In this document: positions 51,013 to 64,000 of the stretch, piece by piece
Layout: each line of letters opens with the position of its first letter
Position numbering within the stretch: position 1 is the stretch's first letter
Assembly: GCA_029742005.1 (NCBI GenBank)
Contig: GCA_029742005.1_4113.1
DNA from: a phage
Strand: one strand, 5' to 3'
Length of the DNA stretch: 64,000 nt
Notes under the pieces: generated by a model
Told to the model about the DNA's origin: nothing
The model's database searches: none
Seen by the model: the letters and a program-made list of their open reading frames with translations, nothing else
Made by a program: the position numbers and the translations under genes

Positions 51013-51042
51013 GACAAATGATAAGTTAATGATATAATATAA

Positions 51043-51075
51043 GGTGACAACATAATATGTTAGTCACCTTTTTTA
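51043..51075 (+). terminator. rho-independent terminator
   Basis: GGTGAC..GTCACC hairpin then T6. Confidence 0.7.
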
Positions 51076-51690
51076 ATCCTGAAAGGTTCCCATAAGGAAA
51101 TGATTAAAAGCCTAATCCACTCGAAAATGTAGAGGGTAGATGAGTAGTCCTTTCAGTACGAACAGCAGATGAAACCCGTTAGATGATGGCATAGTTTGAA
51201 CCACTCACGGCAATGCGGCTGTATAAAGAACTCCAATAGGATAAAGAGAGTTCCTCGATAGACATATAAGGATCGCACCTTACCAATTATCTAAGGGAGA
51301 TTTCATAAGAAATATGCGGTCGGAATTATACAATATAGTTGCGTCCAAATTTTGTGAAATCAAATACAAGTACTGGTCATATGGTATTTGTATTATGTGT
51401 CGGGATGTTTAAGACCGACGACCGTTGCTACAAGAACCGCGATAGAGAGAAACAGAGCAACCCGCTTTCGTCTCGTAAGAGAATTCGTGATATGAACTAT
51501 GTGAAGGCCACCAGCGTCAAACTTTTTTTGTTCTTTCCCCTGCGGGGGGATGAAATATGCTCAAGCAAACCCCGTCAATATTAATTAAAAGAAAATAGTA
51601 CTTGTAGAATTAGACATGCGTAGCATGGTAATTCTACTGATGTTGATGCAATCAACGTCACGTATATTCATTGATGTTTCCATAGGAATA

Positions 51691-52236
51691 ATGATGGCAT
51701 TTATTAGAAAAGAAAAAACTGTTACTTATAAAACTTTGAATTTTGATGATTGCATTAATCAATCACAAGACGAAGATATCTTTACTGGATATGTGGTTAT
51801 TAAAGAAAAAGGATGCATTTCTTATATAAAGGAATTACAAAATGGAATTGAAGTGACTTCAGTTAAATTACTTCCTACTCAAAAACCAACAATATCAAAA
51901 GCCCAGTATGGTAATTATTTTGAAGAAAGATATAGTAATAATTCAATAAGTGTTAAGGCTCATATTATTAAAGGAGAACTAGAAGGAGAATATAGAAAAT
52001 ACAACCCACAAGGAAAATGTGTTTGGGTTAAATACTTCAATTCAGGATATGATGTAACATCTGAAATTATAGAATTCTTGGGTTTAAAATGTACCCCTGA
52101 GACTATTCATGATTACAAGTTCAATACTGAAGAAGAGTTTAATCTGATGATGCGTTACGGTTCACATTTTAAATTTTTATATGAATATAACATTGACAGT
52201 AGTACTTTTGATAAGATAGTACACAACTGTCTCTAA
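51691..52236 (+). CDS. hypothetical protein
   Basis: track frame 51616..52236; start moved to ATG 51691 behind RBS AGGAA. Confidence 0.55.
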   Translation: MMAFIRKEKTVTYKTLNFDDCINQSQDEDIFTGYVVIKEKGCISYIKELQNGIEVTSVKLLPTQKPTISKAQYGNYFEERYSNNSISVKAHIIKGELEGEYRKYNPQGKCVWVKYFNSGYDVTSEIIEFLGLKCTPETIHDYKFNTEEEFNLMMRYGSHFKFLYEYNIDSSTFDKIVHNCL

Positions 52237-52252
52237 CAAAAGGAATTATATA

Positions 52253-52774
52253 ATGTCGAAGAAGGATGCTTCGAAAAAACATTCAGTACATTTCAGTACT
52301 GGAAAAGATAACTGGACAACTCCCAAAGATTTCTTTGAAGATTTGGATGAGTTATGGGGATTTACACTTGATGCTGCTTGTGTAGATGAGACTGCATTGT
52401 GTGATAATTTTTTCACTCCAGAAGATGATTCACTATCACAGGATTGGGGAAATAATATAGTTTGGTTGAATCCACCATACAGTGACTTGAAAACTTGGTT
52501 ATCTAAAGCAGTAGATGCATATAATAACGGGGCAACTGTAGTTATTCTTGTACCCTCAAGAACCGACACAATTGCTTTTCAGGATTATGCTGCTAAAATA
52601 TGTGATTGTATTTGTTTTATTAAGGGAAGATTACGATTTGGTATACCAGAAGAACCCGATAAGAAAACAGATTCAGCACCATTTCCTTCGTGTCTGATAG
52701 TACTGGATAAGTACTTAACCACTGCTAAAATCAATTATCTTAAATCTCTTGGGTTGGTGATGAAGAATTTATGA
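52253..52774 (+). CDS. dam: DNA N6-adenine methyltransferase (small phage Dam family)
   Basis: ORF track; RBS AAAGGAA; NPPY catalytic motif (LNPPYSD) in a ~170-aa protein. Confidence 0.75.
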   Translation: MSKKDASKKHSVHFSTGKDNWTTPKDFFEDLDELWGFTLDAACVDETALCDNFFTPEDDSLSQDWGNNIVWLNPPYSDLKTWLSKAVDAYNNGATVVILVPSRTDTIAFQDYAAKICDCICFIKGRLRFGIPEEPDKKTDSAPFPSCLIVLDKYLTTAKINYLKSLGLVMKNL

Positions 52775-53304
52775 AAGAAACATGTGTATTAACGTTTGGT
52801 CGTATTAATCCTGTACATCGTGGACATGGTTTAGTTTTTGAAAAGGCCAAAACATTACAAGAACAGTACAATGCTGATTTAAAAATATATCTAAGCACCA
52901 GTACTGACAATATAAAAAACCCACTCCCACCTGAACTAAAAATGTATTATACAGAGGGATTCTATCCTTCAGTGCAAGAGAACATCTACACAGAAGACAA
53001 TCTGTTTGATATAATGAGAGAACTGGATGGAAAGTACTTAGATGTTCTTTTCATATGTGGTTCTGACCGTATTGAATCTTTTCAAAAAACTCTTGACATG
53101 TACAATGGTAAGTTGTATAATTTTTGTAGTATAAAAGCAATTCAAGCAGGTATTGACCGTAATGTAAGTCAATATAGCTCAACACAAATGCGTAACTTCG
53201 CAAAAAATGAAGATTTTGATAGTTTTCGTGAGTTTTTACCTGGAAATGACGAGGACTTAAAAATACAATTATTTGAAGACGTTATAAAATACATGAGGAA
53301 ATAA
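52771..53304 (+). CDS. nucleotidyltransferase, HxGH superfamily (cytidylyl/adenylyltransferase-like)
   Basis: ORF track; ATGA overlap with dam; N-terminal LTFGRINPVHRGHG matches the (T/H)xGH signature. Confidence 0.55.
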   Translation: MKETCVLTFGRINPVHRGHGLVFEKAKTLQEQYNADLKIYLSTSTDNIKNPLPPELKMYYTEGFYPSVQENIYTEDNLFDIMRELDGKYLDVLFICGSDRIESFQKTLDMYNGKLYNFCSIKAIQAGIDRNVSQYSSTQMRNFAKNEDFDSFREFLPGNDEDLKIQLFEDVIKYMRK

Positions 53305-53306
53305 TT

Positions 53307-53600
53307 ATGTCAGTACTGTTCAAAACCAATCCAGTACTTTGGGATCAAAATGAGCAATCAGGATTTCGTTCCATCCATGTTGAATACAAAGGTAATACTG
53401 TAGTTGCAATTATTGCTAACAAAACTCTAGGAAACTGGACTGCACAGGTTGTTCCTATGGGATATTCTTACACATCTGATGAGGTTCAATTCCTGGCTGA
53501 ACTATATCGTCAAGTGCCGTTTATCATTAATGTACTAGAAGGTAATGATACATTATCACATGAAGATGTGATTAATTTTCTTGGAAACTTACATGTGTGA
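53307..53600 (+). CDS. hypothetical protein
   Basis: ORF track. Confidence 0.55.
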   Translation: MSVLFKTNPVLWDQNEQSGFRSIHVEYKGNTVVAIIANKTLGNWTAQVVPMGYSYTSDEVQFLAELYRQVPFIINVLEGNDTLSHEDVINFLGNLHV

Positions 53601-53880
53601 TGAAATAAATCTTACAGGATATTTTTTACAAGAATCAATGATTAAATTTAGTGATAAATTTTCAGTACTGGATGGTATCGAAATGTGGCATGTCAAACCA
53701 CTGTTCCACACTTTCAGTAAAGAGCACAAAATGTTATTGACTGAAGCCAGTAAATCAAATAACATATGTGAAATCAAAATTGGTGTAAATGTCTATAAAG
53801 GGATGGTTATCTTTTTTGACAATAACAGCAACTACTTTTATATTGTTAAGGAGCATTACGTTGACAAATACAAATACTAA
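53581..53880 (+). CDS. hypothetical protein
   Basis: ORF track. Confidence 0.5.
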   Translation: METYMCDEINLTGYFLQESMIKFSDKFSVLDGIEMWHVKPLFHTFSKEHKMLLTEASKSNNICEIKIGVNVYKGMVIFFDNNSNYFYIVKEHYVDKYKY

Positions 53881-54475
53881 TACATATTTCCGTTATCTTC
53901 GCTTAGGTCTTTCCCTACGTCCGATCCGTGGAAAGTGCGATTCACTCGCTGACCTTGACTATGCATATGCATTACATCATGAAGGTGTACAGTATGTATT
54001 GGGTGATTATGGTGAATTTGAAGAAACAAATGACAGTACTGGAATTAATGCTGGTGTAGAAAATCTTAACAACATTGCTAACAGTTCTCGCCATGACATT
54101 GTGTTACAGATTCAAAACTTTATTGAGCAGCACACAGGTAAACGTGTTTGGTGCTATGTCGGTACGGATGCACAAATGTCAATTTCATTCGGTAACGATG
54201 AAGGATATGTTGCACAGCTTATTATGGATTTTGAATCTGAAGAGAAGTTTTTAGAATTCAAAGAAAAGATTATTCAGTCACTTGTTGATATGGGTATCCC
54301 CGAAGATAAAATGCCAGAAGTCCAAAACATTGATGAATTTGTTTTGATTCCATCTGATGAGAAATATGATGCAATGTTTACTGCTCTTAATATTCCAGGA
54401 GTTATTGTGGAGTACTTTGATGATGGTGATGATAGTATCTATATCGATCTAGATGACGATGACGACGATGAATAA
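53861..54475 (+). CDS. hypothetical protein with poly-acidic C-terminus (TTG start inferred)
   Basis: track frame 53789..54475 overlaps upstream gene; RBS AAGGAG precedes TTG 53861; ends DLDDDDDDE. Confidence 0.45.
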   Translation: MTNTNTNTYFRYLRLGLSLRPIRGKCDSLADLDYAYALHHEGVQYVLGDYGEFEETNDSTGINAGVENLNNIANSSRHDIVLQIQNFIEQHTGKRVWCYVGTDAQMSISFGNDEGYVAQLIMDFESEEKFLEFKEKIIQSLVDMGIPEDKMPEVQNIDEFVLIPSDEKYDAMFTALNIPGVIVEYFDDGDDSIYIDLDDDDDDE

Positions 54476-54481
54476 TGTACA

Positions 54482-54510
54482 TAGCCCGACATAAGTTCGG
54501 GCTATTTTTG
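54482..54510 (+). terminator. rho-independent terminator
   Basis: TAGCCCGA..TCGGGCTA hairpin then T5. Confidence 0.7.
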
Positions 54511-54521
54511 TAAGGGGATAT

Positions 54522-54797
54522 ATGAATTATAAAGTTCTACAATATACATACAGTGTTTTGTTTGATTTACATCACAATGGAAGATATCTCAATACAATAC
54601 GAGAAAACACATTCACTCATACTATCTGGATTAATCACTTAATAATGATACGTGAATATTTTGTTAATAGTGAGATAATCATTCGTGGTAAAAAACAGAA
54701 GATAGAACAAGTTAATAGTTTTGGTGGTAAATTAGTACTATCATTTATAGATAGTAATACTAATGAAAGATATAGTATAGATTTGGTGGACATATGA
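54522..54797 (+). CDS. fam3 small protein
   Basis: ORF track; N-terminal LQYTYSVLFDL signature. Confidence 0.55.
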   Translation: MNYKVLQYTYSVLFDLHHNGRYLNTIRENTFTHTIWINHLIMIREYFVNSEIIIRGKKQKIEQVNSFGGKLVLSFIDSNTNERYSIDLVDI

Positions 54798-55059
54798 ATT
54801 ATAAAGATTTCCTACTAACATACAAGATTATTCGAGATTTAGCACACGACAATGATAGCCCTAGTCTAGAAGACACATGCACTGAAATGATTCATACGAT
54901 TCGTGGTAAGATTAAAAAAAATTCAGTACTGTTATTATTGGTGATGACCATGCAGAATTTTCTGATATAATCATTAGACGTGATGGTAAAGTTGAGGTTC
55001 AGTACTACACTGATTTTGGATTTACCAGTATTCCGTTGGAGATATTCCCTTGGGATTAA
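54794..55059 (+). pseudogene. fam3 copy disrupted by a frameshift at an A8 run
   Basis: ATG 54794 opens a fam3-like frame that stops after about 58 codons; the rest continues in another frame across an A8 homopolymer near 54919. Confidence 0.4.
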
Positions 55060-55361
55060 ATTTAAATGATATACAATTCACTTATAAGATCCTATATGAT
55101 TTGTATGATTTATACCTTGTTAGTAACAAAATAGGTTCACATAACTCATCCAAAGAACAACCATTTATTGATTTATATATTGAGTACTTAGATTCAGTAG
55201 GTGAATATATAAAAAAGAATTACAGTACTTTTAACGATGGAAATGATATATTCGAGTTCTCTGGAGTTAAATCATACAATGGGATTATCCATGTTGAATT
55301 TCTTGAAATAACCGATAGGGGATTTATCGAGATTAAAGTTGTGAAGTTGGTGAATTTATAA
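55050..55361 (+). CDS. fam3 small protein (TTG start per track)
   Basis: ORF track with non-ATG start; signature LNDIQFTYKILYDLYDLY. Confidence 0.5.
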   Translation: MGLNLNDIQFTYKILYDLYDLYLVSNKIGSHNSSKEQPFIDLYIEYLDSVGEYIKKNYSTFNDGNDIFEFSGVKSYNGIIHVEFLEITDRGFIEIKVVKLVNL

Positions 55362-55371
55362 GAGGTTACAT

Positions 55372-55683
55372 ATGTTATTAAATGATATACAATTCACATA
55401 CAAATTTTTGTATATCCAATACGCTACGGTTGATGCTGGAGAATATCTCTACGGTGAAATCTATCGTTCGGTATGGATAAAGTTTTTGGATGAATTACAT
55501 GAATATTACCATGATTTGTGTATAGTTCGTGATAATAAAATATACAAATTCCTCGATATTGTTAGTCATAGCGGTAAGCTACGATTGGAATTAAGTACTG
55601 ATAGTGATGTTGATTGGATTGGTGTAAATTTACTGGAGTTGGAGAATGAAAAACAACTTAAAGGAAATACAAGTATTTTATAA
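55372..55683 (+). CDS. fam3 small protein
   Basis: ORF track; RBS AGAGG; signature LNDIQFTYKFLYIQY. Confidence 0.6.
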   Translation: MLLNDIQFTYKFLYIQYATVDAGEYLYGEIYRSVWIKFLDELHEYYHDLCIVRDNKIYKFLDIVSHSGKLRLELSTDSDVDWIGVNLLELENEKQLKGNTSIL

Positions 55684-55930
55684 ATTCTTATACTTGTCAT
55701 ATGTAAAAGATGAGTACTATGAAAGTGTGTATTATTTTTTATGGCAACATTACCGTACTATAGTAAGAGATTTATATATAGGAAAATCTATCATATCCAA
55801 TGGTGAAAAATGTATATGTACTGATGTTGTTAGTTTTAATGGTTCGTTAACACTGTGTTTCAGATGCGATAATAATAGTGGGTCATTTTCATTAAACGTA
55901 TATCAGTTAGAAGGAATAAATTTTGAATAA
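55646..55930 (+). CDS. fam3 small protein
   Basis: ORF track; signature EIQVFYKFLYLSY. Confidence 0.55.
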   Translation: MKNNLKEIQVFYKFLYLSYVKDEYYESVYYFLWQHYRTIVRDLYIGKSIISNGEKCICTDVVSFNGSLTLCFRCDNNSGSFSLNVYQLEGINFE

Positions 55931-56123
55931 ATGTCCATATTGTAACAGTACTCAATTAGCTCGTTTCCGTTTAGATTCAGACTGGGCGACTGGTGCTGGT
56001 GATTTCTTCCCTATTAATGATGATGCGGAATACACCGAAGAACAGCACAAAGATTTTGATAAATCATGGCGACCTGACATTGAGTGCATTTATTGCCTTA
56101 ATTGTGAGCGTGTTCATGACTAA
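55923..56123 (+). CDS. small zinc-ribbon protein
   Basis: ORF track; CPYC..CIYCLNC (two CxxC pairs). Confidence 0.55.
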   Translation: MNKCPYCNSTQLARFRLDSDWATGAGDFFPINDDAEYTEEQHKDFDKSWRPDIECIYCLNCERVHD

Positions 56124-56379
56124 AGCTGAACTAATAGTTCATACATATAAAATGATATCAAGTACTAAGTTATCATATAGTGAAGATAATCCAGTACTGG
56201 ATTATTTTGTTGAATTATTGAAAGAGCATTATATTGGTAAATCACTGATTCTTAATAATATTAATTTCACGGTAAAGGATGTAGCACCTGGAAAAAACGT
56301 ACTAATAGTATGTGTTACTTCATCTGATAACCCAGTATACCCAATATCAATAATTTTTGAGATATTAGGAGATTTATGA
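56116..56379 (+). CDS. fam3-like small protein
   Basis: track frame 55993..56379 overlaps upstream gene; start moved to ATG 56116. Confidence 0.5.
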   Translation: MTKAELIVHTYKMISSTKLSYSEDNPVLDYFVELLKEHYIGKSLILNNINFTVKDVAPGKNVLIVCVTSSDNPVYPISIIFEILGDL

Positions 56380-56666
56380 ATATCATTTTAATGCAGAAAA
56401 CATATGCTATATTGGTGAAAGATTATTCCATTACTTTCGATTCACAAGAAAGTGCTCTACATAACCTATACAAAAACGTAACACAAGAATACAGAAATAT
56501 GTTTTCTGACTTAGTAGTAGGAAGGTATTTCAGTACTAGAAAATACCCAAAACTTCAAATAGTTGATGTTTCTTTTTATTTCAATGGTCATATTACTATT
56601 CATACTTTAGACCAAGATTCAACAACGTACTTAAACTTTTCATTTGATGAGGTAACATTTTTATGA
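56376..56666 (+). CDS. fam3 small protein
   Basis: ORF track; signature MQKTYAILVKDY. Confidence 0.55.
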   Translation: MNIILMQKTYAILVKDYSITFDSQESALHNLYKNVTQEYRNMFSDLVVGRYFSTRKYPKLQIVDVSFYFNGHITIHTLDQDSTTYLNFSFDEVTFL

Positions 56667-56839
56667 GAGCAGTATTTTTTATCTGGAGTCTTTTTTCATT
56701 GGCAGTACTGACAGTATGTGGGATTTGTTTCCTTTCATCAATTAATACTTGGTATATCAATTTACTATTTCCATTTGTCTGTGTTGGTTTAGGGTTTACT
56801 TTGCATAGTGTATGTAAGGATTACAATGAGAACAAATGA
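56663..56839 (+). CDS. putative small membrane protein (58 aa)
   Basis: hand-called; ATGA overlap; two hydrophobic segments. Confidence 0.4.
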   Translation: MRAVFFIWSLFSLAVLTVCGICFLSSINTWYINLLFPFVCVGLGFTLHSVCKDYNENK

Positions 56840-57104
56840 AGTACTTATTGCTGAAACAATGAAGATGATTTACAATATCACGTCAGCACAGAATATGCCC
56901 TATCCAACTAAGTCTTTATTGAGGACTGTGTATCTGGGGATAGTACAGGAGTACTACAAATCCAAGCACCGAAGCATTATTAGTGTTTATCGTGATTATG
57001 AAAGGATTCGTATTTTATTCTGGAACAAGAATCGAGTACGTTCTGAATGTGACCTAGTGGACTTTAAATTAGAGAATCTTTATTGCTATAAACAGGGACA
57101 ATAG
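56826..57104 (+). CDS. fam3-like small protein
   Basis: track frame 56808..57104 (GTG); start moved to ATG 56826. Confidence 0.5.
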   Translation: MRTNEVLIAETMKMIYNITSAQNMPYPTKSLLRTVYLGIVQEYYKSKHRSIISVYRDYERIRILFWNKNRVRSECDLVDFKLENLYCYKQGQ

Positions 57105-57162
57105 TTTAATTCATGATATAATAATGGGTAAGGAACAATAATTAACACAAGGAGTGTGTGAA

Positions 57163-57891
57163 ATGCTTGACCGTATCCGTTTCGCTACAGAGATGGCGAA
57201 TGAATTAAACATGGCAAATTTCCAAATGTTAACATCAGTAATGGCTGAACATGCATGTGCTTATTCTGTAAGTGGTGTGCAGTGTGGTCAGGAGAATATG
57301 TTAGCAGATGTTTATAGTGAAGTGCAAAGTAAGCAATATAGTGTAAAGACATATAAGGATAAGTTTGTTAGTCTTTATATGAACGAAGATATTGCCGAAG
57401 ACCGTAAATTCACTGATTTTATTATTGAACGCCGAGTATCAGGTGTATCTAATCCTAATGCATCAAGCGAGGAAGTTTTTGCAGAAGTACTGAAAGATAT
57501 ATACGAAAATGAATTAAAAAGTAAGAATCATTACAATGTACGTGAAACTAACACAGTGCTCTTGGGATATGATGAAGACGAAGAATACTATTATTTTCGT
57601 ATGACTGAAGTTCCTTTTGAATACAAATCTCCATATACAACTACAGTGAAAGAATTTACTGAAAAAAGTAAAAACTTCATGAAGCATGAAGGAAATCGTT
57701 GTAGTATAAATGGTTACGACGAAAATGGCATTCACATTTATGAGTGGGTTCACCCAAATTGTCAGACATACACTCGTTGCTTGAAAAAACGTTATAATTT
57801 AGAAGAGCATGAATCATTCTATTTTAAAGTTAAGAAGCAAGGTTACACTCGCCCCGCCGATTCTGAATTGATGGGTATGATATATTTCTAA
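57163..57891 (+). CDS. hypothetical protein (242 aa)
   Basis: track frame 57154..57891; start moved to ATG 57163 behind RBS AAGGAG; TGATATAAT promoter-like box about 45 nt upstream. Confidence 0.6.
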   Translation: MLDRIRFATEMANELNMANFQMLTSVMAEHACAYSVSGVQCGQENMLADVYSEVQSKQYSVKTYKDKFVSLYMNEDIAEDRKFTDFIIERRVSGVSNPNASSEEVFAEVLKDIYENELKSKNHYNVRETNTVLLGYDEDEEYYYFRMTEVPFEYKSPYTTTVKEFTEKSKNFMKHEGNRCSINGYDENGIHIYEWVHPNCQTYTRCLKKRYNLEEHESFYFKVKKQGYTRPADSELMGMIYF

Positions 57892-57901
57892 GGAAACTTC
57901 T

Positions 57902-58183
57902 ATGGATTTTTATCTACACACATGGACATACGAACAATATATTACATTATATCTTGAAATTATTAACACAGAACCTAGGTGTGGTTGTTGGTTCGCAGAT
58001 ATCATAAAAGAGTATGCTGACGAGTTCGAGTTTGTGTATCTTGGGTCTGATATATTTGTAAAAAGTGTAGGTAAAACCGGACGAATCACTGATATAGATT
58101 ACGACACTGTTAGTGTGAATTTCTATGTTGATTTTCCTGATGCTGGAGTTGATGGTGTATATTGTCTTTATGAAATAATTTAA
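57902..58183 (+). CDS. hypothetical protein
   Basis: ORF track. Confidence 0.55.
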   Translation: MDFYLHTWTYEQYITLYLEIINTEPRCGCWFADIIKEYADEFEFVYLGSDIFVKSVGKTGRITDIDYDTVSVNFYVDFPDAGVDGVYCLYEII

Positions 58184-58189
58184 ATTCTT

Positions 58190-58216
58190 AGGCCAGCGTT
58201 TGCTGGTCTTTTTTCG
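58190..58216 (+). terminator. rho-independent terminator
   Basis: AGGCCAGC..GCTGGTCT hairpin then T6. Confidence 0.7.
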
Positions 58217-58227
58217 CAGGTACAAAG

Positions 58228-58530
58228 ATGTTCAGTATAGATTTAATTAACAGTACTATCAAAATGTTGGCTGATTTGGTGAGACAATCCAATGGAACTT
58301 TATATCCATCAATGTATAAAATGTTTGACCGATACATCAAGGATTGTAACATATCATTATATGGACTTACTGTTGATATAGACGATTACTATGGAATTAA
58401 TACTTCATATAAAACAGGAATTTTAATTGGTATTAATATAAAGATGGGGTATTTCCCTTATTACTGTATAGGATTACCAGATAATACTTTGGTAGAATAT
58501 CCAGCCAGTACTATTAAATTAAGAGGATAA
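58228..58530 (+). CDS. hypothetical protein
   Basis: ORF track. Confidence 0.55.
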   Translation: MFSIDLINSTIKMLADLVRQSNGTLYPSMYKMFDRYIKDCNISLYGLTVDIDDYYGINTSYKTGILIGINIKMGYFPYYCIGLPDNTLVEYPASTIKLRG

Positions 58531-58537
58531 AACTAAA

Positions 58538-59116
58538 ATGAATGTATTAGAATTAAGTACTAAGCTGATTAGTATGCGTAATGAGTGGTACGATTGGTTT
58601 TATAATGGTACTGATATGAATTTTTCAAAATATCCATTTATGGAATCAGGATGTGATTCAAGATACCGCTGGTTGAGCAAAAGTGATTCTGGTTTACATA
58701 TTAGAATCGATGATAGTGGTCGAGGAATTATACACGATTTACTTCAAGTTGATCAATTCGTCCATGACAATTGGTGTGATAACGATCCATACCTTGGAAA
58801 TATGATTTATATAAGTGAAGATGATTGCGTATTCGTTATCCAGCGACATGGTAATTCTATGTTTTATGTAGCAGACAGCAGTACACCAGAAGGTGCAGCA
58901 GCCGATGGACTTATGCCTAAAATTGATATATTGGAATTTGGATTACCTGAGCACTTCCAGATTAGTACTTTATACGATATTCCACCACTTGAGTTCTTTG
59001 AAGAATTTAAATTGTACTTCAATGATCTTCAAAAATTGAGTACTGATAGACGCATTGAAATAACTGTTAAGTACATGGACGGAACGAAATTAACCGATAC
59101 GGGGATAGAATTTTGA
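58538..59116 (+). CDS. fam2-like protein
   Basis: ORF track; motif LPEHFQISTLYD. Confidence 0.55.
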   Translation: MNVLELSTKLISMRNEWYDWFYNGTDMNFSKYPFMESGCDSRYRWLSKSDSGLHIRIDDSGRGIIHDLLQVDQFVHDNWCDNDPYLGNMIYISEDDCVFVIQRHGNSMFYVADSSTPEGAAADGLMPKIDILEFGLPEHFQISTLYDIPPLEFFEEFKLYFNDLQKLSTDRRIEITVKYMDGTKLTDTGIEF

Positions 59117-59802
59117 TTAAAGATTTAGATAGAATTTTATATGTACTAAGGGGTGTAATTACATTACATCCACAAATCAATCGAATTGAAAGTACATTTC
59201 AGTTGGAGTCAAGAGAAACTCCATATTCACATATATCAAATGTAGTTGGTTCACTCAGTACTGAAGACTCGTCTTACGATATTTGTGTATGTGAAGTACA
59301 ACCAAGTTCGGATCTTGGATTTGCTATTTTTGATAAAAATCAAAATCTCATTAGTATGTTTCAGTGCAATAATCCTTTTTGGAAAACATGCCTGTATCCA
59401 GAGTGGGCTATGCTTGATCCAACCAAGAGTACCATTAAAGTTTATGACTCTAAAAATGATGAAGTCGTTATTGATTTGGATGAGTCAATGTCAGAGGAAG
59501 AACACTTTCAGCTAATGATGATGCGTGCTATGCCTGAATACAATGCAATGATTAACACAGTGCAATACATTAAGGATACCATGCCATCGTTGCGTACACA
59601 TGAGTTTTGTCATCCGGTATTGTATGAACATCTAGATTTAGACTTCAGTACTATTAAATTTAAAGATAGTGTTATTAGATATATCCAAGAAGTTACTAAA
59701 TTTAATTTCATTAGTACAATGAATAATAACCCTGAAACAAATTTCAGACGACAATATAATGAATCTTTGTCTAATGGACGTGATACCAGTTGGTGGAAAT
59801 AA
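59113..59802 (+). CDS. fam2-like protein
   Basis: ORF track; motif EEEHFQLMMMRA. Confidence 0.55.
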   Translation: MIKDLDRILYVLRGVITLHPQINRIESTFQLESRETPYSHISNVVGSLSTEDSSYDICVCEVQPSSDLGFAIFDKNQNLISMFQCNNPFWKTCLYPEWAMLDPTKSTIKVYDSKNDEVVIDLDESMSEEEHFQLMMMRAMPEYNAMINTVQYIKDTMPSLRTHEFCHPVLYEHLDLDFSTIKFKDSVIRYIQEVTKFNFISTMNNNPETNFRRQYNESLSNGRDTSWWK

Positions 59803-59803
59803 T

Positions 59804-59956
59804 ATGAATATCCAAGATAGATTACAATTACTGTACACACTTGAACAGGCTGCTTATGAACTTGTTCGAAAAATCTCTGAAGAACTCCCTAAAGGAACTA
59901 AAGTTCGTGTACGTGAGATGAATTATTTTTCTGGAAAATTGAAGAACAAGTACTAA
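59804..59956 (+). CDS. small hypothetical protein (50 aa)
   Basis: track frame 59759..59956; start moved to ATG 59804 (TAATATG junction). Confidence 0.4.
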   Translation: MNIQDRLQLLYTLEQAAYELVRKISEELPKGTKVRVREMNYFSGKLKNKY

Positions 59957-60062
59957 CAGTGAATAAAGTAACATACTATGAATCTGAGTTGTCTATTCAG
60001 TGTGAATCAGATGATGGATTAATATCATATTATGGGACTGATATAGACATAGAGGTAATAAA

Positions 60063-61205
60063 ATGACCCTTTTGCAAATATATGAAGATTTAATGCACTT
60101 ATGTAATACAAACGATGCATTCTTTTATGTGGATCATAAAAGTCCTGCTGGTGGCACGTATCGTGTATTCAGTTATCGTCTAGCATCATACACTGATTTC
60201 ATGCAACCAAATGCGTTGGAAACCCGTGGCTCTATGTGGGAAATTGATGAAGAAGGTGAAATGATACGTTGTGCAGCACGTACAATGAAAAAGTTCTTCA
60301 ATGCTTACGAGAATCCTGCTACAATGTTCCCTGCTAACACCACATGCGATGACATTGCGGTAGTGATGCCTAAGTTGGATGGTTCGATTATCAGTACTTA
60401 CCGTGATAATGATGGTGAGATTCGTTGTAAATCACATACTGCATTGTATTCTGACCATGCGATTAATAGTACTCGACTTATTAACGAGAACCAGAATTTG
60501 TATCAGTACATCGACGAAGCGGAACGTTTAGGTTACACAGTTAATATGGAGTATACAAGCCCAGAGTACCGAATTGTATTACCATATCAGGTAGAACAAC
60601 TGTTTGTACTGAACGTTCGTCATCGTGTGAGTGGTGAGTTGCTATGTGGTAAAGCACTACGTGATAAGTTTCCATGTCTTGCACAGTACAGTACTAATAT
60701 GACTGGAAAAGATATTCATCACACTTTTCCGGTACGAAATACCTTCCGTGAAAGCGTGGAGGAAGTTCATAAAATGCTTGATATTGAGGGTTTTGTGTGC
60801 ATCCTAAATAATGGGACAATGTGTAAAATAAAGACTGACTGGTACAGTTCATTACATCTTACAAAAGATAGTATTATTATTGATTCTCATTTATATGAAG
60901 CAGTATTAAATGGTTCAAGTGATGATTTAAAACAATTGTTCAGTACTGATGAATATGCTATGCAAAAGATATTAAGAATGGAACAATTGGTATTTTCGTG
61001 CTATAATGCATTACAAGATGAAGTAGAAAGCTTCGTCAAGGAACACAAGCACTTGGAGCGAAAGGAATTCGCAATGAAGGTTCAGGAGTGTTTAACTAAT
61101 GAACTGAATCGTCAGGGCTTGGCCTTTGCAATGTATAACAATAAGAAAGTTGATTACAAAGAGACTCTTATAAAATACATGAAAATTGTACTAAAGGATT
61201 TTTAG
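60063..61205 (+). CDS. rnlA: RNA ligase 1 (T4 RnlA-like)
   Basis: ORF track; RBS GAGG; KxDG adenylation motif (PKLDGS); YRVFSY, EKFFN..ENP, KIKTDWY..LH..K and SDDLK blocks match recalled T4 RnlA in order; T4-like length 380 aa. Confidence 0.8.
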   Translation: MTLLQIYEDLMHLCNTNDAFFYVDHKSPAGGTYRVFSYRLASYTDFMQPNALETRGSMWEIDEEGEMIRCAARTMKKFFNAYENPATMFPANTTCDDIAVVMPKLDGSIISTYRDNDGEIRCKSHTALYSDHAINSTRLINENQNLYQYIDEAERLGYTVNMEYTSPEYRIVLPYQVEQLFVLNVRHRVSGELLCGKALRDKFPCLAQYSTNMTGKDIHHTFPVRNTFRESVEEVHKMLDIEGFVCILNNGTMCKIKTDWYSSLHLTKDSIIIDSHLYEAVLNGSSDDLKQLFSTDEYAMQKILRMEQLVFSCYNALQDEVESFVKEHKHLERKEFAMKVQECLTNELNRQGLAFAMYNNKKVDYKETLIKYMKIVLKDF

Positions 61206-61235
61206 TACTATCTAGCCTAAGCACAAGGAGAAGTG

Positions 61236-61490
61236 ATGGCTAAACCTAAGTATAAAAATGACGGTTCCCTTTCTCCGACTGAGTTCAGGAAAATACAAGA
61301 AGAAATCGATGAATTACAGCACAAACGCTCAATGAAAGGTGTGAAGATAAGTAAGAAACGAATCGAGAATACCTTCGGATGTAGTAGTACTGAATACAAG
61401 AAGAAAAGGAAACCAAAAGGTGTTAAGCCGAGAATACATGATGTAACTCGCTATACATCGAAACGTGAAAATAAATTTGATCCACTATAA
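61236..61490 (+). CDS. hypothetical basic protein
   Basis: track frame 61233..61490 (GTG); ATG 61236 behind RBS AAGGAGAAG. Confidence 0.55.
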   Translation: MAKPKYKNDGSLSPTEFRKIQEEIDELQHKRSMKGVKISKKRIENTFGCSSTEYKKKRKPKGVKPRIHDVTRYTSKRENKFDPL

Positions 61491-61499
61491 GGAGTTCAT

Positions 61500-61730
61500 A
61501 TGAAAGTTGAAGTTCAGCATAGTATTGTTCAGGATATGTCAGTAGTTAAATTTCTTTCTCTGAAAGATTACTTCAGATGTATCAAGTTCCTAGAAGAATC
61601 TCAATTACAGTGGACCCCATTAAAGTACAGTTCATCCAATGATACTGCTAGTATTCGTTGTGATGAATCTGTACTTGTGAAAATCTCCAAGCGATTTGGA
61701 GTAGGAAAAGTTAATGAGCACAGTAAGTGA
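61500..61730 (+). CDS. hypothetical protein
   Basis: ORF track; RBS AAGGAG. Confidence 0.55.
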   Translation: MKVEVQHSIVQDMSVVKFLSLKDYFRCIKFLEESQLQWTPLKYSSSNDTASIRCDESVLVKISKRFGVGKVNEHSK

Positions 61731-61968
61731 CCTAAAATACTACAACAAAACTGCGGATACGTTTATTACTCATTTATATGAAGAATTTAGTCGTATCCGT
61801 AAGGAATATACAGGTAAATGTATTTTATATAGTTCTTATCATAGTGGTGGAATTGAAAGTGCTTACATTACTAAAGTGAAGTTTTCTGATGACTATCAAT
61901 TACTCTTTGAATTAGATGATTGTTTCGTTATTGAAGCTTGTTTGATAGTGGATGTTCTAGATAATTGA
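61714..61968 (+). CDS. hypothetical protein
   Basis: ORF track. Confidence 0.5.
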   Translation: MSTVSDLKYYNKTADTFITHLYEEFSRIRKEYTGKCILYSSYHSGGIESAYITKVKFSDDYQLLFELDDCFVIEACLIVDVLDN

Positions 61969-61974
61969 GGACAT

Positions 61975-62289
61975 ATGAATAAAGAACTTGCATTTGAGAG
62001 GATCGAAAAGTTAAAGTACATTGAAAAGGAACTAATAGAATCTGTCGAATCAATGGTCGAAGATTACGTTTTCGATTTTAAGAAAACATTGATTGGATGT
62101 AAAGTTAAATGCTGGGATCATACAATCAGAGAATGGTTCAGTACTATAATTCTTGATGTTAAAGTATCGCGTACTGCTATTGGTAATTTAGTAAATGGTG
62201 AATGCTTTGTATACACTGAATACAATAACGGAACAAGAAACCTTTCAAGAGGATGGCACAAACTCGAAGATGTAGAATTCATTGAGTAA
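61975..62289 (+). CDS. hypothetical protein
   Basis: ORF track; RBS GAGGA. Confidence 0.55.
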   Translation: MNKELAFERIEKLKYIEKELIESVESMVEDYVFDFKKTLIGCKVKCWDHTIREWFSTIILDVKVSRTAIGNLVNGECFVYTEYNNGTRNLSRGWHKLEDVEFIE

Positions 62290-62301
62290 CAAGGAGTAAT
62301 A

Positions 62302-63234
62302 ATGCCAACTATTACACTAACAGTTGGATTACCTGGGTGTGGTAAAACCACATGGGCAGTTCAAGAAATTAAAAATGCCAAATCCAAGACTATCAACATC
62401 AACCGTGATGATATTCGTGAATCTATGGCTGGGTCACATGATGCTTACAAATTCAACGATGCTAATGAGCAGTACGTAACTAATTTACAGTTCAGTGCAG
62501 CAAATTCAGCAGCAGAGAATGGTTGGAACATCATCATATCCGATACAAACCTTAAACAACATTTCCGTAATCTCTGGAAAGTATGGGCTAAAGATAATGG
62601 TTATGATTACAAAGAAAAGAACTTCTATGATGATTTTGTACCTAATGAAGACCGTGGTGCAGATGTTCATGAATTCTTTAAGATTAAAGAGTTCGTAAAA
62701 CTTTGTAAGAAATATAACCTTCAGCGTGAGCGTTCAGTACAAGATAATATCATTGACACAATGGCAGATACGTACTATTATAGTAAGGCATTGCACATTG
62801 GTTACTATGGTAATTCACGAGAAGCTGCTGTTATCGTTGATATTGACGGTACTCTTGCTCATAAATGGGGTCGTAATCCTTACGATGAAAGTACTGTTCT
62901 TCAGGATACACCTGATGAAGAAGTTATTTTGTCTATTATCGCTGAAGCAGTTTTTCATAAACGCAAGATTATCGTCATGAGTGGGCGTACTGAAGGGTGT
63001 CGTACTGACACCGAACAGTGGCTTAAGAATTGGGGTGTTCCTTACGATGCATTGTTTATGCGAGGCATCGATGATAAACGTCCTGATGATGTTGTTAAAT
63101 TCGACCTGTACATGAAAAATGTGGTTAATCAATACGATGTTAAAAAGGTATATGATGACCGCGAAGCCGTGACGTTCATGTGGCGTAAGCTACTTGGTTT
63201 GAAGGTATTTCAAGTAGATTTTGGACGTTTTTGA
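62302..63234 (+). CDS. pnk: polynucleotide 5'-kinase / 3'-phosphatase (T4 Pnk-like)
   Basis: ORF track; RBS AAGGAG; N-terminal P-loop GLPGCGKTT; C-terminal HAD-type DxDGT (VDIDGTLA); blocks match recalled T4 Pnk in order. Confidence 0.8.
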   Translation: MPTITLTVGLPGCGKTTWAVQEIKNAKSKTININRDDIRESMAGSHDAYKFNDANEQYVTNLQFSAANSAAENGWNIIISDTNLKQHFRNLWKVWAKDNGYDYKEKNFYDDFVPNEDRGADVHEFFKIKEFVKLCKKYNLQRERSVQDNIIDTMADTYYYSKALHIGYYGNSREAAVIVDIDGTLAHKWGRNPYDESTVLQDTPDEEVILSIIAEAVFHKRKIIVMSGRTEGCRTDTEQWLKNWGVPYDALFMRGIDDKRPDDVVKFDLYMKNVVNQYDVKKVYDDREAVTFMWRKLLGLKVFQVDFGRF

Positions 63235-63274
63235 TAAAATAAATAGTGCATATATGACAAAAAGGACTTTCTAT

Positions 63275-63961
63275 ATGCACTATTATATTATATATAAAAT
63301 AACCAATTTAATTAATAATAAAATTTATATTGGTGCTCATATGACTGATGACATAAATGATGAATATATGGGTTCAGGTGTTCTGATAAAGAAATCCATT
63401 AAGAAATATGGAATTGAAAAATTCAATAAAGAAATACTTTATATTTTTGATAATAAAGAAGAAATGTATAACAAAGAAAGAGAAATTGTTAATGAACAAT
63501 TTATACAAAGAAGCGACACATATAACATCAAACGTGGTGGAGAAGGTGGCTACGGCGTAATTGATAAAGAAAATTGGAAAAAACAAATATCAACGACACA
63601 AAAGAAGCGATATTCTTCAGGTGTTGTGGCTTGGAATAAAGGTAAATCTGTATCAGAAGAAACACGTATTCAAATGAGTCAGAGGATGAAAGGTCGTTTC
63701 CCTGGAGATAAAAATCCTATGCATGGTAAACCCTGTACATATAAAATGACAGATGAAGAAAAAACATCATGGTCCAACAATATAAAGAAATCAAACACTG
63801 GTAAAAAGAGAACTGATGTTCAAAAACAAAAATATTCTTCGGTCGCGTCAAAACGAATTTGGTTAGTTCATAAAAGTGGTAAAGTTACTAATACACAAAA
63901 TGAAAATGACCCACGTTTGAATGATCCAGATTGGCAACGTGGTCAAAAGTGGAGAGAATGA
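63275..63961 (+). CDS. GIY-YIG homing endonuclease (Seg/I-TevI-like)
   Basis: track frame 63221..63961; start moved to ATG 63275 behind RBS AAAGGA; IYKITN..KIYIG..NIKRGGEG pattern; basic C-terminal half; locally very AT-rich. Confidence 0.65.
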   Translation: MHYYIIYKITNLINNKIYIGAHMTDDINDEYMGSGVLIKKSIKKYGIEKFNKEILYIFDNKEEMYNKEREIVNEQFIQRSDTYNIKRGGEGGYGVIDKENWKKQISTTQKKRYSSGVVAWNKGKSVSEETRIQMSQRMKGRFPGDKNPMHGKPCTYKMTDEEKTSWSNNIKKSNTGKKRTDVQKQKYSSVASKRIWLVHKSGKVTNTQNENDPRLNDPDWQRGQKWRE

Positions 63962-64000
63962 ATATTTTTATGGATTATAATTTTTGAGGGATCATAATTT

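What the first reader, a model, noticed from the sequence alone, without database searches (positions are those of the whole stretch)
54794..55059. Family-3 copy interrupted at an A8 homopolymer
Between the family-3 genes at 54522 and 55050 a family-like frame starts at ATG 54794, runs into a stop after about 58 codons, and continues in another frame after an A8 tract (near 54919) to a stop at 55057-55059. This is either a slippage-generated pseudogene or a programmed frameshift site.
Basis: seen in the sequence. Interest (0 to 1): 0.45.

Follow-up and report, generated by a model that had tools for sequence, protein, structure and literature searches.

The report
One-base deletion breaks small phage gene
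A small accessory gene of unknown function in this 121Q-like jumbo E. coli phage has lost one A from a run of nine, which splits it into two reading frames; this is an ordinary strain-specific frameshift mutation at a slippery homopolymer, not a conserved programmed frameshift.

Summary
ATG 54794 opens a 58-codon frame that stops at 54968-54970. After the A8 tract (54914-54921) the -1 frame stays open to TAA 55057-55059.

The window is an Asteriusvirus (121Q/PBECO4-like jumbo phage), and the two pieces together are the ortholog of 121Q gp423 (88 aa, PHROG 35943, unknown function).

- All 31 full-length GenBank matches are one base longer and have a single frame. The 16 close relatives I read carry A9; the 5 divergent ones carry a G-interrupted run.
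- Seven relatives match the window's gene exactly except for that one A.
- The intact protein is on about 100 public contigs. The truncated 58-aa product is on two: a Logan contig identical to the window, and an independent metagenome scaffold with different flanks.
- There is no significant downstream RNA structure, and the two-frame layout is not conserved. A programmed frameshift is therefore not supported.

The best reading is a real, recent one-base deletion by replication slippage in a dispensable paralog. It removes the whole C-terminal beta-sheet of the predicted fold.

Rare -1 ribosomal slippage, or insertion of one A during transcription, would recreate exactly the wild-type protein. 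That leak is inferred, and literature values suggest it is small. Read-level confirmation is still missing. The finding is ordinary and of low interest.

The parts
54794..55059 (+). Frameshifted ortholog of phage 121Q gp423 (88 aa in relatives; PHROG 35943, unknown function). The whole disrupted gene.
   Evidence: 266 nt here against 267 nt in 31 GenBank records. Seven relatives are identical except for one extra A. PHROG hit covers 1-88 of 88, E 2e-62.
54794..54970 (+). Frame-0 ORF. It gives 42 native residues (helices 1-2 of the predicted fold), then 16 out-of-frame residues (NSVLLLLVMTMQNFLI) and a TAA stop.
   Evidence: The exact 58-aa product is recorded on only two public contigs.
54914..54921 (+). 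A8 homopolymer, the site of the one-base deletion. It is A9 (Lys-Lys-Lys) in close relatives. It is also the potential -1 ribosomal or +1A transcriptional slip site.
   Evidence: There is no run of 9 or more anywhere in the 64-kb window.
54922..55059 (+). Continuation in the -1 frame, encoding the conserved C-terminal four-stranded beta-sheet half of the protein. It ends at TAA 55057-55059.
   Evidence: 100% identical to the intact orthologs. dN/dS of this half among relatives is 0.10-0.38. The AF2 model places strands at residues 46-81.
54522..54797 (+). Upstream paralog (91 aa, PHROG 32291). Its TGA overlaps the ATG of the broken gene (ATGA).
55050..55361 (+). Downstream paralog (103 aa, PHROG 21004). 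Its TTG start, 7 nt after GGAG, overlaps the last 10 nt of the broken gene.
   Evidence: Annotated in the same way in relatives.
54481..54505 (+). Terminator-like hairpin that closes the preceding unit. The paralog array 54522-58183 starts just after it.
   Evidence: Annotated as a terminator in phage G17.

Best explanation
This is a real, recent, strain-specific loss-of-function allele of a small accessory gene, the ortholog of 121Q gp423. Its ancestral coding sequence held ATT AAA AAA AAA TTC (A9), and replication slippage removed one A. Standard decoding now yields a 58-aa polypeptide. That product keeps the N-terminal helical hairpin and replaces the whole C-terminal four-stranded sheet with 16 unrelated residues, so it is most likely non-functional. 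The gene sits in a tandem array of fast-evolving paralogs that decays in other relatives too, so it is probably dispensable in the conditions under which this phage was propagated.

Shown: the deletion, the single-frame state of all relatives, the rarity of the allele, and its presence in two different genome backgrounds.

Inferred: a minor fraction of full-length protein may still be made. Either a -1 slip of peptidyl-tRNA-Lys on U AAA AAA A, or RNA polymerase adding one A on the A8 tract, would give I-K-K-K-F, which is exactly the wild-type 88-aa protein. This would be an unselected leak of at most a few per cent, not an evolved mechanism.
For: - Relatives: 16 of 16 close relatives have A9 and one ORF. 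Five of 5 divergent relatives have AAAGAAAAA or GAAGAAAAT and one ORF. All 31 full-length GenBank hits span 267 nt for the 266-nt query.
- Age of the mutation: seven relatives differ from the window's gene only by the missing A, so there has been no decay after the frameshift.
- Selection on the whole gene: the gene is under purifying selection across the genus, dN/dS 0.17-0.41 overall and 0.10-0.38 for the C-terminal half.
- Rarity: the intact exact protein is on about 100 contigs, plus about 30 for close variants. The 58-aa product is on 2.
- Not a one-off error: Logan contig SRR21990203_231 is 100% identical to window 51442-64000 and has A8. ENA scaffold ERZ28596934 scaffold_28520 has A8 in an identical gene but carries 32 mismatches in the flanks.
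- No systematic homopolymer miscalling in the assembly: of 43 runs of 6 or more compared with five relatives over 23 kb, the window differs by an indel at three. One of these is shared with three relatives.
- Other real changes in the same phage: it carries a second, non-homopolymer frameshift (GT to A) in another small gene at about 59936.
- Locus decay elsewhere: Salmonella phages SD-1_S14 and SD-6_S16 carry deletions and fusions here, one with a breakpoint inside the A run.
- Effect on the protein: the AF2 model (pLDDT 91.3) puts KKK at the end of helix 2, before all four strands.
Against: - No reads were available, so a consensus error at an A9 tract cannot be formally excluded.
- The window and the Logan contig may derive from the same read set, which leaves only one truly independent confirmation: a 1.25-kb metagenome scaffold of unknown coverage.
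- The post-shift frame shows no decay. That fits a very recent mutation, but it would also fit continued selection on a slippage-rescued product.
- The same allele in two different backgrounds could mean the OFF state is sometimes favoured rather than neutral.
Confidence: 0.8

Rival explanations
1. Sequencing or assembly artefact: the phage really has A9, and the consensus dropped one A in the homopolymer.
For: Homopolymers are the classic site of consensus errors. The window differs from every GenBank relative only by this base within the gene. The Logan contig may come from the same reads as the window.
Against: - An independent metagenome scaffold with 32 flank mismatches shows the same A8.
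- A 55-kb Logan contig assembled separately gives A8.
- The other homopolymers in 23 kb agree with relatives, so there is no sign of an error-prone platform.
- The same genome has a non-homopolymer frameshift that no homopolymer error model explains.
Confidence: 0.1
2. Programmed recoding: the A8 tract is an evolved -1 ribosomal frameshift or transcriptional slippage site. It would deliver a set ratio of a 58-aa and an 88-aa product, as in dnaX, IS elements or phage tail chaperone G/GT.
For: - A AAA AAA-type tracts are intrinsically shift-prone in E. coli (PMC1851650).
- A -1 shift would give precisely the wild-type protein (sequence).
- The downstream frame is perfectly intact.
Against: - The two-frame layout is absent from all 31 full-length relatives, and divergent relatives destroy the tract with G.
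- There is no stimulatory RNA structure (z -1.4 and -0.35), and I saw no strong Shine-Dalgarno-like element upstream in the sequence.
- E. coli RNA polymerase shows no detectable rescue on runs shorter than eight A, and hardly any on poly(A) overall (PMC6260861). Selection against slippage-prone runs becomes evident at about nine nucleotides in many bacterial genomes (PMC1088944).
- The allele is rare, 2 of about 135 contigs.
Confidence: 0.03
3. Contingency (phase-variable) switch: the A9/A8 tract is a hypermutable ON/OFF switch that lets phage populations turn this accessory protein off when it is costly, for example when a host defence senses it. This would resemble the poly-G tracts of Campylobacter phages.
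For: - The tract would be the longest homopolymer in the region.
- The OFF allele occurs in two genome backgrounds that are no closer to each other than to the A9 phage 121Q: 32 against 27 mismatches. That is compatible with recurrence.
- A deletion in SD-1_S14 also starts in the tract.
Against: - OFF is rare, and no A10 allele or A8 allele in other protein backgrounds is on record.
- Divergent relatives lack the tract altogether, so it is not a conserved device.
- KKK encoded as AAA AAA AAA is expected by chance in a genome with 36% A.
- No phenotype is known for the gene.
Confidence: 0.07

Closest known systems
Homopolymer-indel frameshift pseudogenes, partly rescued by polymerase or ribosome slippage (E. 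coli strain-specific cases in Baranov et al. 2005, PMC1088944; human apoB A8 allele cited there; the endosymbiont poly(A) cases are from my own knowledge)
   Same: A one-base change in an A run splits an otherwise intact gene, and close relatives are single-frame. Adding one A to the mRNA, or a -1 ribosomal slip, would restore the native protein.
   Different: Rescue has not been measured here. The tract is only eight A, the shortest poly(A) run on which E. coli RNA polymerase showed any detectable rescue (PMC6260861). The gene is a non-essential phage ORFan.
Programmed -1 ribosomal frameshifting (E. coli dnaX A AAA AAG; phage lambda G/GT)
   Same: A lysine-codon A-rich slippery tract, with a -1 frame that continues into a conserved coding segment.
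   Different: No conserved two-frame organisation, no stimulatory hairpin or pseudoknot, no internal Shine-Dalgarno element. Relatives encode the product in one frame.
Programmed transcriptional slippage (Thermus thermophilus dnaX A9; IS elements with A9/A8; Shigella mxiE T9)
   Same: A homopolymeric A tract in the coding strand at the junction of two frames.
   Different: Those tracts and their out-of-frame layout are conserved among homologs. Here the tract is A9 in-frame or interrupted in homologs, and A8 occurs in 2 of about 135 contigs.
Hypermutable homopolymer contingency loci (bacterial phase variation; poly-G tracts of Campylobacter phages; from my own knowledge)
   Same: Length change of a homopolymer toggles a gene between ON and OFF. 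The OFF allele is seen in two backgrounds.
   Different: OFF frequency is very low, the tract is not conserved across the genus, and no selective agent is known.

Membership tests
Frameshift pseudogene caused by a homopolymer indel | Close relatives carry the same gene as one uninterrupted frame | tested here: met
   31 of 31 full-length GenBank matches are 267 nt and single-frame. The intact protein is on about 100 contigs.
Frameshift pseudogene caused by a homopolymer indel | The disruption is a length change of a mononucleotide run and nothing else | tested here: met
   A8 against A9. Seven relatives are otherwise identical over the gene.
Frameshift pseudogene caused by a homopolymer indel | The allele is real, that is, reproducible in independent sequence data | tested here: inconclusive
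   A8 is present in a Logan contig identical to the window and in an independent ENA scaffold with divergent flanks. Reads could not be inspected.
Frameshift pseudogene caused by a homopolymer indel | The truncated product lacks a conserved, selected part of the protein | tested here: met
   All four beta-strands (residues 46-81 of the model, pLDDT 91.3) are lost. dN/dS of the C-terminal half is 0.10-0.38.
Programmed -1 ribosomal frameshift site | Slippery heptamer X XXY YYZ in the zero frame | tested here: met
   U AAA AAA (54913-54919) and A AAA AAU (54916-54922) lie in the zero frame. This feature is met by any in-frame A8.
Programmed -1 ribosomal frameshift site | Stimulatory element: a downstream stem-loop or pseudoknot 5-9 nt away, or an upstream Shine-Dalgarno-like sequence | tested here: not met
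   Fold of 54922-54995 gives z -1.4; fold of 54880-55010 gives z -0.35. The upstream sequence CGUGGUAAGAUU has no AGGAGG-like element.
Programmed -1 ribosomal frameshift site | The two-frame organisation is conserved among homologs | tested here: not met
   0 of 31 relatives. Divergent relatives interrupt the tract.
Programmed -1 ribosomal frameshift site | The trans-frame protein is detected at a reproducible ratio | not testable with these tools
   Needs proteomics or a reporter assay.
Programmed transcriptional slippage site | A run long enough for efficient slippage by the transcribing polymerase (about 9 A/T or more in many bacterial genomes) | tested here: not met
   The run is 8. E. coli RNA polymerase gave no detectable rescue on runs shorter than eight A and hardly any on poly(A) overall (PMC6260861). 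The 9-nt threshold is from PMC1088944. Which polymerase transcribes this array was not tested.
Programmed transcriptional slippage site | The tract and the out-of-frame layout are conserved among homologs | tested here: not met
Contingency (phase-variable) locus | Tract length is polymorphic between or within populations, with both states common | tested here: not met
   A8 is on 2 contigs against about 135 with the in-frame state. No A10 allele is on record. Two further metagenome contigs are A9. Within-population variation is not testable here.

The most novel reading that the evidence does not exclude
The A9/A8 tract in gp423-like genes acts as a low-frequency ON/OFF (or ON/leaky) switch. 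The OFF allele would arise recurrently and be favoured on some hosts, for example where the small alpha2-beta4 protein triggers a defence. Slippage on A8 would keep a trickle of native protein. That would make this a phage contingency locus in a jumbo-phage accessory-gene array.
Probability: 0.07. Interest if true: 0.4.

Novelty: already known. Interest (0 to 1): 0.12.

Why it matters
Mostly as a matter of annotation.

- Positions 54794-55059 should be annotated as a frameshifted (disrupted) ortholog of 121Q gp423. They should not be annotated as a 58-aa gene plus an orphan ORF, nor as a programmed frameshift.
- Together with the second frameshift at about 59936 and the deletions in Salmonella-infecting relatives, it shows that the tandem arrays of small paralogous ORFan genes in Asteriusvirus genomes are dispensable and turn over quickly.
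- If the contingency or leaky-expression reading were true, it would give a handle on the function of one of these ORFans. Nothing here requires that reading.

Tried and rejected
- **Programmed frameshift.** I looked for conservation and for a stimulatory structure. None was found.
- **Systematic homopolymer error in the assembly.** I aligned 23 kb against five relatives and checked all 43 runs of 6 or more. The window is not systematically shorter, and the intergenic T-run lengths also vary among relatives.
- **Further A8 or A10 alleles.**
  - Exact-protein look-ups of predicted A10 products and of A8 products on other backgrounds found none.
  - DNA pattern scans with a variable-length gap gave 0 hits in IMG/VR, 0 in GTDB genomes, and 2 metagenome contigs, both A9.
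- **Source genome.** It is not in the phage collection searched. The best match is 98.2% over 23 kb to G17 and Sharanji.

Full report
**Observation**

- ATG 54794 overlaps the TGA of the preceding 91-aa paralog (54522-54797). It opens a frame of 58 codons that stops at TAA 54968-54970.
- The homopolymer is exactly eight A at 54914-54921. In the zero frame it reads ATT AAA AAA AAT.
- From 54922 the -1 frame is open for 45 sense codons to TAA 55057-55059. That stop overlaps the TTG start (55050, 7 nt after GGAG) of the next 103-aa paralog.
- An open frame of that length has a chance probability of about 0.02 at this base composition. Homology makes chance irrelevant, as shown below.

**What the genome is**

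The region matches the jumbo E. coli phages of the genus Asteriusvirus (121Q, PBECO4, G17, phAPEC6, slurp01 and others) at 97-99% identity. No record in the phage collection is identical; the best is 98.2% over 23 kb. In all of them the equivalent gene is annotated as one 267-nt, 88-aa hypothetical protein (121Q gp423).

**The difference is one base**

- I extracted the ortholog from 21 relatives and aligned them.
- Sixteen close relatives have A9 (ATT AAA AAA AAA TTC, I-K-K-K-F) and a single frame. Seven of them are identical to the window over the whole gene except for the extra A.
- Five more divergent relatives (79-93% identity) have the run interrupted by G (AAAGAAAAA, K-E-K, or GAAGAAAAT, E-E-N). 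They too are single-frame.
- A BLAST of the gene alone shows that all 31 full-length GenBank matches span 267 nt for the 266-nt query.
- The ancestral and general state is therefore one frame, and the window carries a one-base deletion in the A9 tract.
- A9 (or A6) restores the frame.

**Is it a real allele or an error?**

- The exact 58-aa product is recorded on two public contigs.
  - Logan SRR21990203_231 (55 kb) is 100% identical to window 51442-64000, so it is the same phage, possibly from the same reads.
  - An ENA metagenome scaffold (ERZ28596934, scaffold_28520, 1255 bp) is a different genome. Its copy of the gene is identical to the window's, including A8, but its flanks carry 32 mismatches. 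Twenty-one of these cluster in the last 85 nt of the upstream paralog, and the flanks are slightly nearer to 121Q (27 mismatches) than to the window.
- The assembly shows no sign of homopolymer miscalling.
  - In a 23-kb multiple alignment with five relatives, the window-specific indels are these: an 18-nt in-frame deletion, two intergenic T-run changes (one shorter, one longer), the A8, and a non-homopolymer GT-to-A change.
  - Of 43 runs of 6 or more, only three differ by an indel, and one of those is shared with three relatives.
- I therefore take A8 as real, at about 0.8-0.9. Reads were not available, so this is not proven.

**How rare it is**

- The intact exact 88-aa protein is on about 100 contigs, and close variants are on about 30 more.
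- Two further metagenome contigs found by a pattern with a variable gap are both A9. IMG/VR and the GTDB genomes gave no match.
- Predicted A10 products, and A8 products on other protein backgrounds, are not on record.

**The protein**

- Pfam gives nothing above threshold. PHROGs places the restored protein in phrog_35943 and the neighbours in phrog_32291, 21004, 28826 and 32812, all of unknown function.
- The paralogs are only 14-21% identical to it, but a profile of eight neighbours recognises it at 13.8 bits.
- Homologs are confined to this phage group, 12 clusters in all.
- An AlphaFold model of an intact ortholog is confident (pLDDT 91.3). It has helices at 3-20 and 23-43, then four strands at 46-81. 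The KKK encoded by the tract closes helix 2.
- The zero-frame product therefore keeps the helical hairpin and loses the entire sheet.
- Across the genus the gene is under purifying selection, including its C-terminal half (dN/dS 0.10-0.38). The downstream frame is therefore genuine coding sequence that belongs to the same protein.

**Programmed frameshift?**

- The only feature met is the slippery tract itself, which any in-frame A8 provides.
- The two-frame arrangement is absent from every relative, and the tract is destroyed in the divergent ones.
- The RNA downstream folds no better than shuffles (z -1.4 for 54922-54995, z -0.35 for 54880-55010).
- I saw no Shine-Dalgarno-like element upstream.
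- For transcriptional slippage, E. coli RNA polymerase gave no detectable rescue on runs shorter than eight A and hardly any on poly(A) overall (PMC6260861). The length at which selection against slippage-prone runs becomes evident is nine in many bacterial genomes (PMC1088944).
- I conclude that this is not an evolved recoding site.

**Likely mechanism and consequences**

- Shown: a one-base contraction of the longest homopolymer in the region. No run of 9 or more exists in the 64-kb window.
- Inferred: the contraction arose by replication slippage. It is recent, because there is no other change in the gene. The 58-aa product is non-functional.
- Inferred: a small leak of native protein is possible.
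  - A -1 slip of tRNA-Lys on U AAA AAA A would read I-K-K-K-F, as would insertion of one A by RNA polymerase. That is exactly the wild-type sequence.
  - A-rich lysine tracts do shift in E. coli (C AAA AAA in pDEST17, PMC1851650), and an A8 allele of human apoB is about 10% rescued (cited in PMC1088944).
  - Without stimulators I expect at most a few per cent here.
- Ribosomes now terminate about 80 nt before the next paralog instead of overlapping its start. This may lower translational coupling, although that gene has its own GGAG.

**Context that supports dispensability**

- The same phage has a second broken small gene. At about 59936, GGAGTAATTG has become GGAAAATTG. This truncates the ortholog of G17_00488 (102 aa) to 65 aa, and the rest continues in the -1 frame to the ATGA overlap with the RNA ligase gene.
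- Salmonella-infecting relatives show further damage. SD-1_S14 has a deletion of roughly 390 nt whose left breakpoint lies inside the A tract (…GATTAAAAAAA|CGATAGGGG…) and which joins the 3' end of the next paralog. SD-6_S16 encodes a gp423/gp424 fusion. SD-2_S15 and SD-15_S21 have truncated gp424.
- The array 54522-58183 lies between two terminator-like hairpins.

**Verdict**

The phenomenon is ordinary and well known. The residual novel reading, a low-frequency contingency switch or leaky allele, has a probability of roughly 0.07. Interest 0.12.

Noticed in passing
window 59759-60066 (+): A second frameshifted small gene in the same phage. GGAGTAATTG of all five relatives is GGAAAATTG here (GT to A, about 59936). 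The ortholog of G17_00488 (102 aa) stops after 65 aa at 59956, and the rest (IEEQVLTVNK...EVIK*) continues in the -1 frame to the ATGA overlap with the RNA ligase gene at 60063. It is not a homopolymer event. The exact 65-aa product is on record only on the Logan contig identical to the window.
   Followed up: yes
window ~45848 (+): An 18-nt in-frame deletion relative to G17, 121Q, E9.1, slurp01 and CRJP21. It lies inside the ortholog of G17_00520, in a locally very divergent patch.
   Followed up: no
L031 (Salmonella phage SD-1_S14) 821-830; P0019 (SD-6_S16): SD-1_S14 has a deletion of roughly 390 nt whose left breakpoint is inside the same A tract (A7 then CGATAGGGG). It joins the 3' end of the next paralog and gives a 52-aa product. 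SD-6_S16 encodes a 96-aa gp423/gp424 fusion. These genomes are also 20-40 kb shorter than their relatives, so assembly problems are possible.
   Followed up: partly
L024 (ENA ERZ28596934 scaffold_28520), aligned to window 54710-54792: Twenty-one of the 32 mismatches between this scaffold and the window are packed into the last 85 nt of the upstream paralog, while the broken gene itself is identical. This looks like a mosaic or recombination patch.
   Followed up: no
window 54522-58183 (+): A tandem array of about ten small (87-103 aa) very divergent paralogs, bracketed by terminator-like hairpins at 54481-54505 and 58190-58209. The one member modelled has a confident fold of two helices plus four strands, with no match to a characterised protein. 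Homologs are confined to Asteriusvirus-like phages.
   Followed up: partly
window 49342, 50139, 51069, 51523 (intergenic T runs): The T runs that follow hairpins vary by one base among otherwise near-identical relatives (T6/T7/T8). Homopolymer length polymorphism is therefore common in non-coding parts of these genomes.
   Followed up: partly
window 51013-51615: About 600 bp without a convincing gene. Relatives annotate nothing there, or only tiny reverse ORFs. It holds several of the variable T runs and a G6 run.
   Followed up: no
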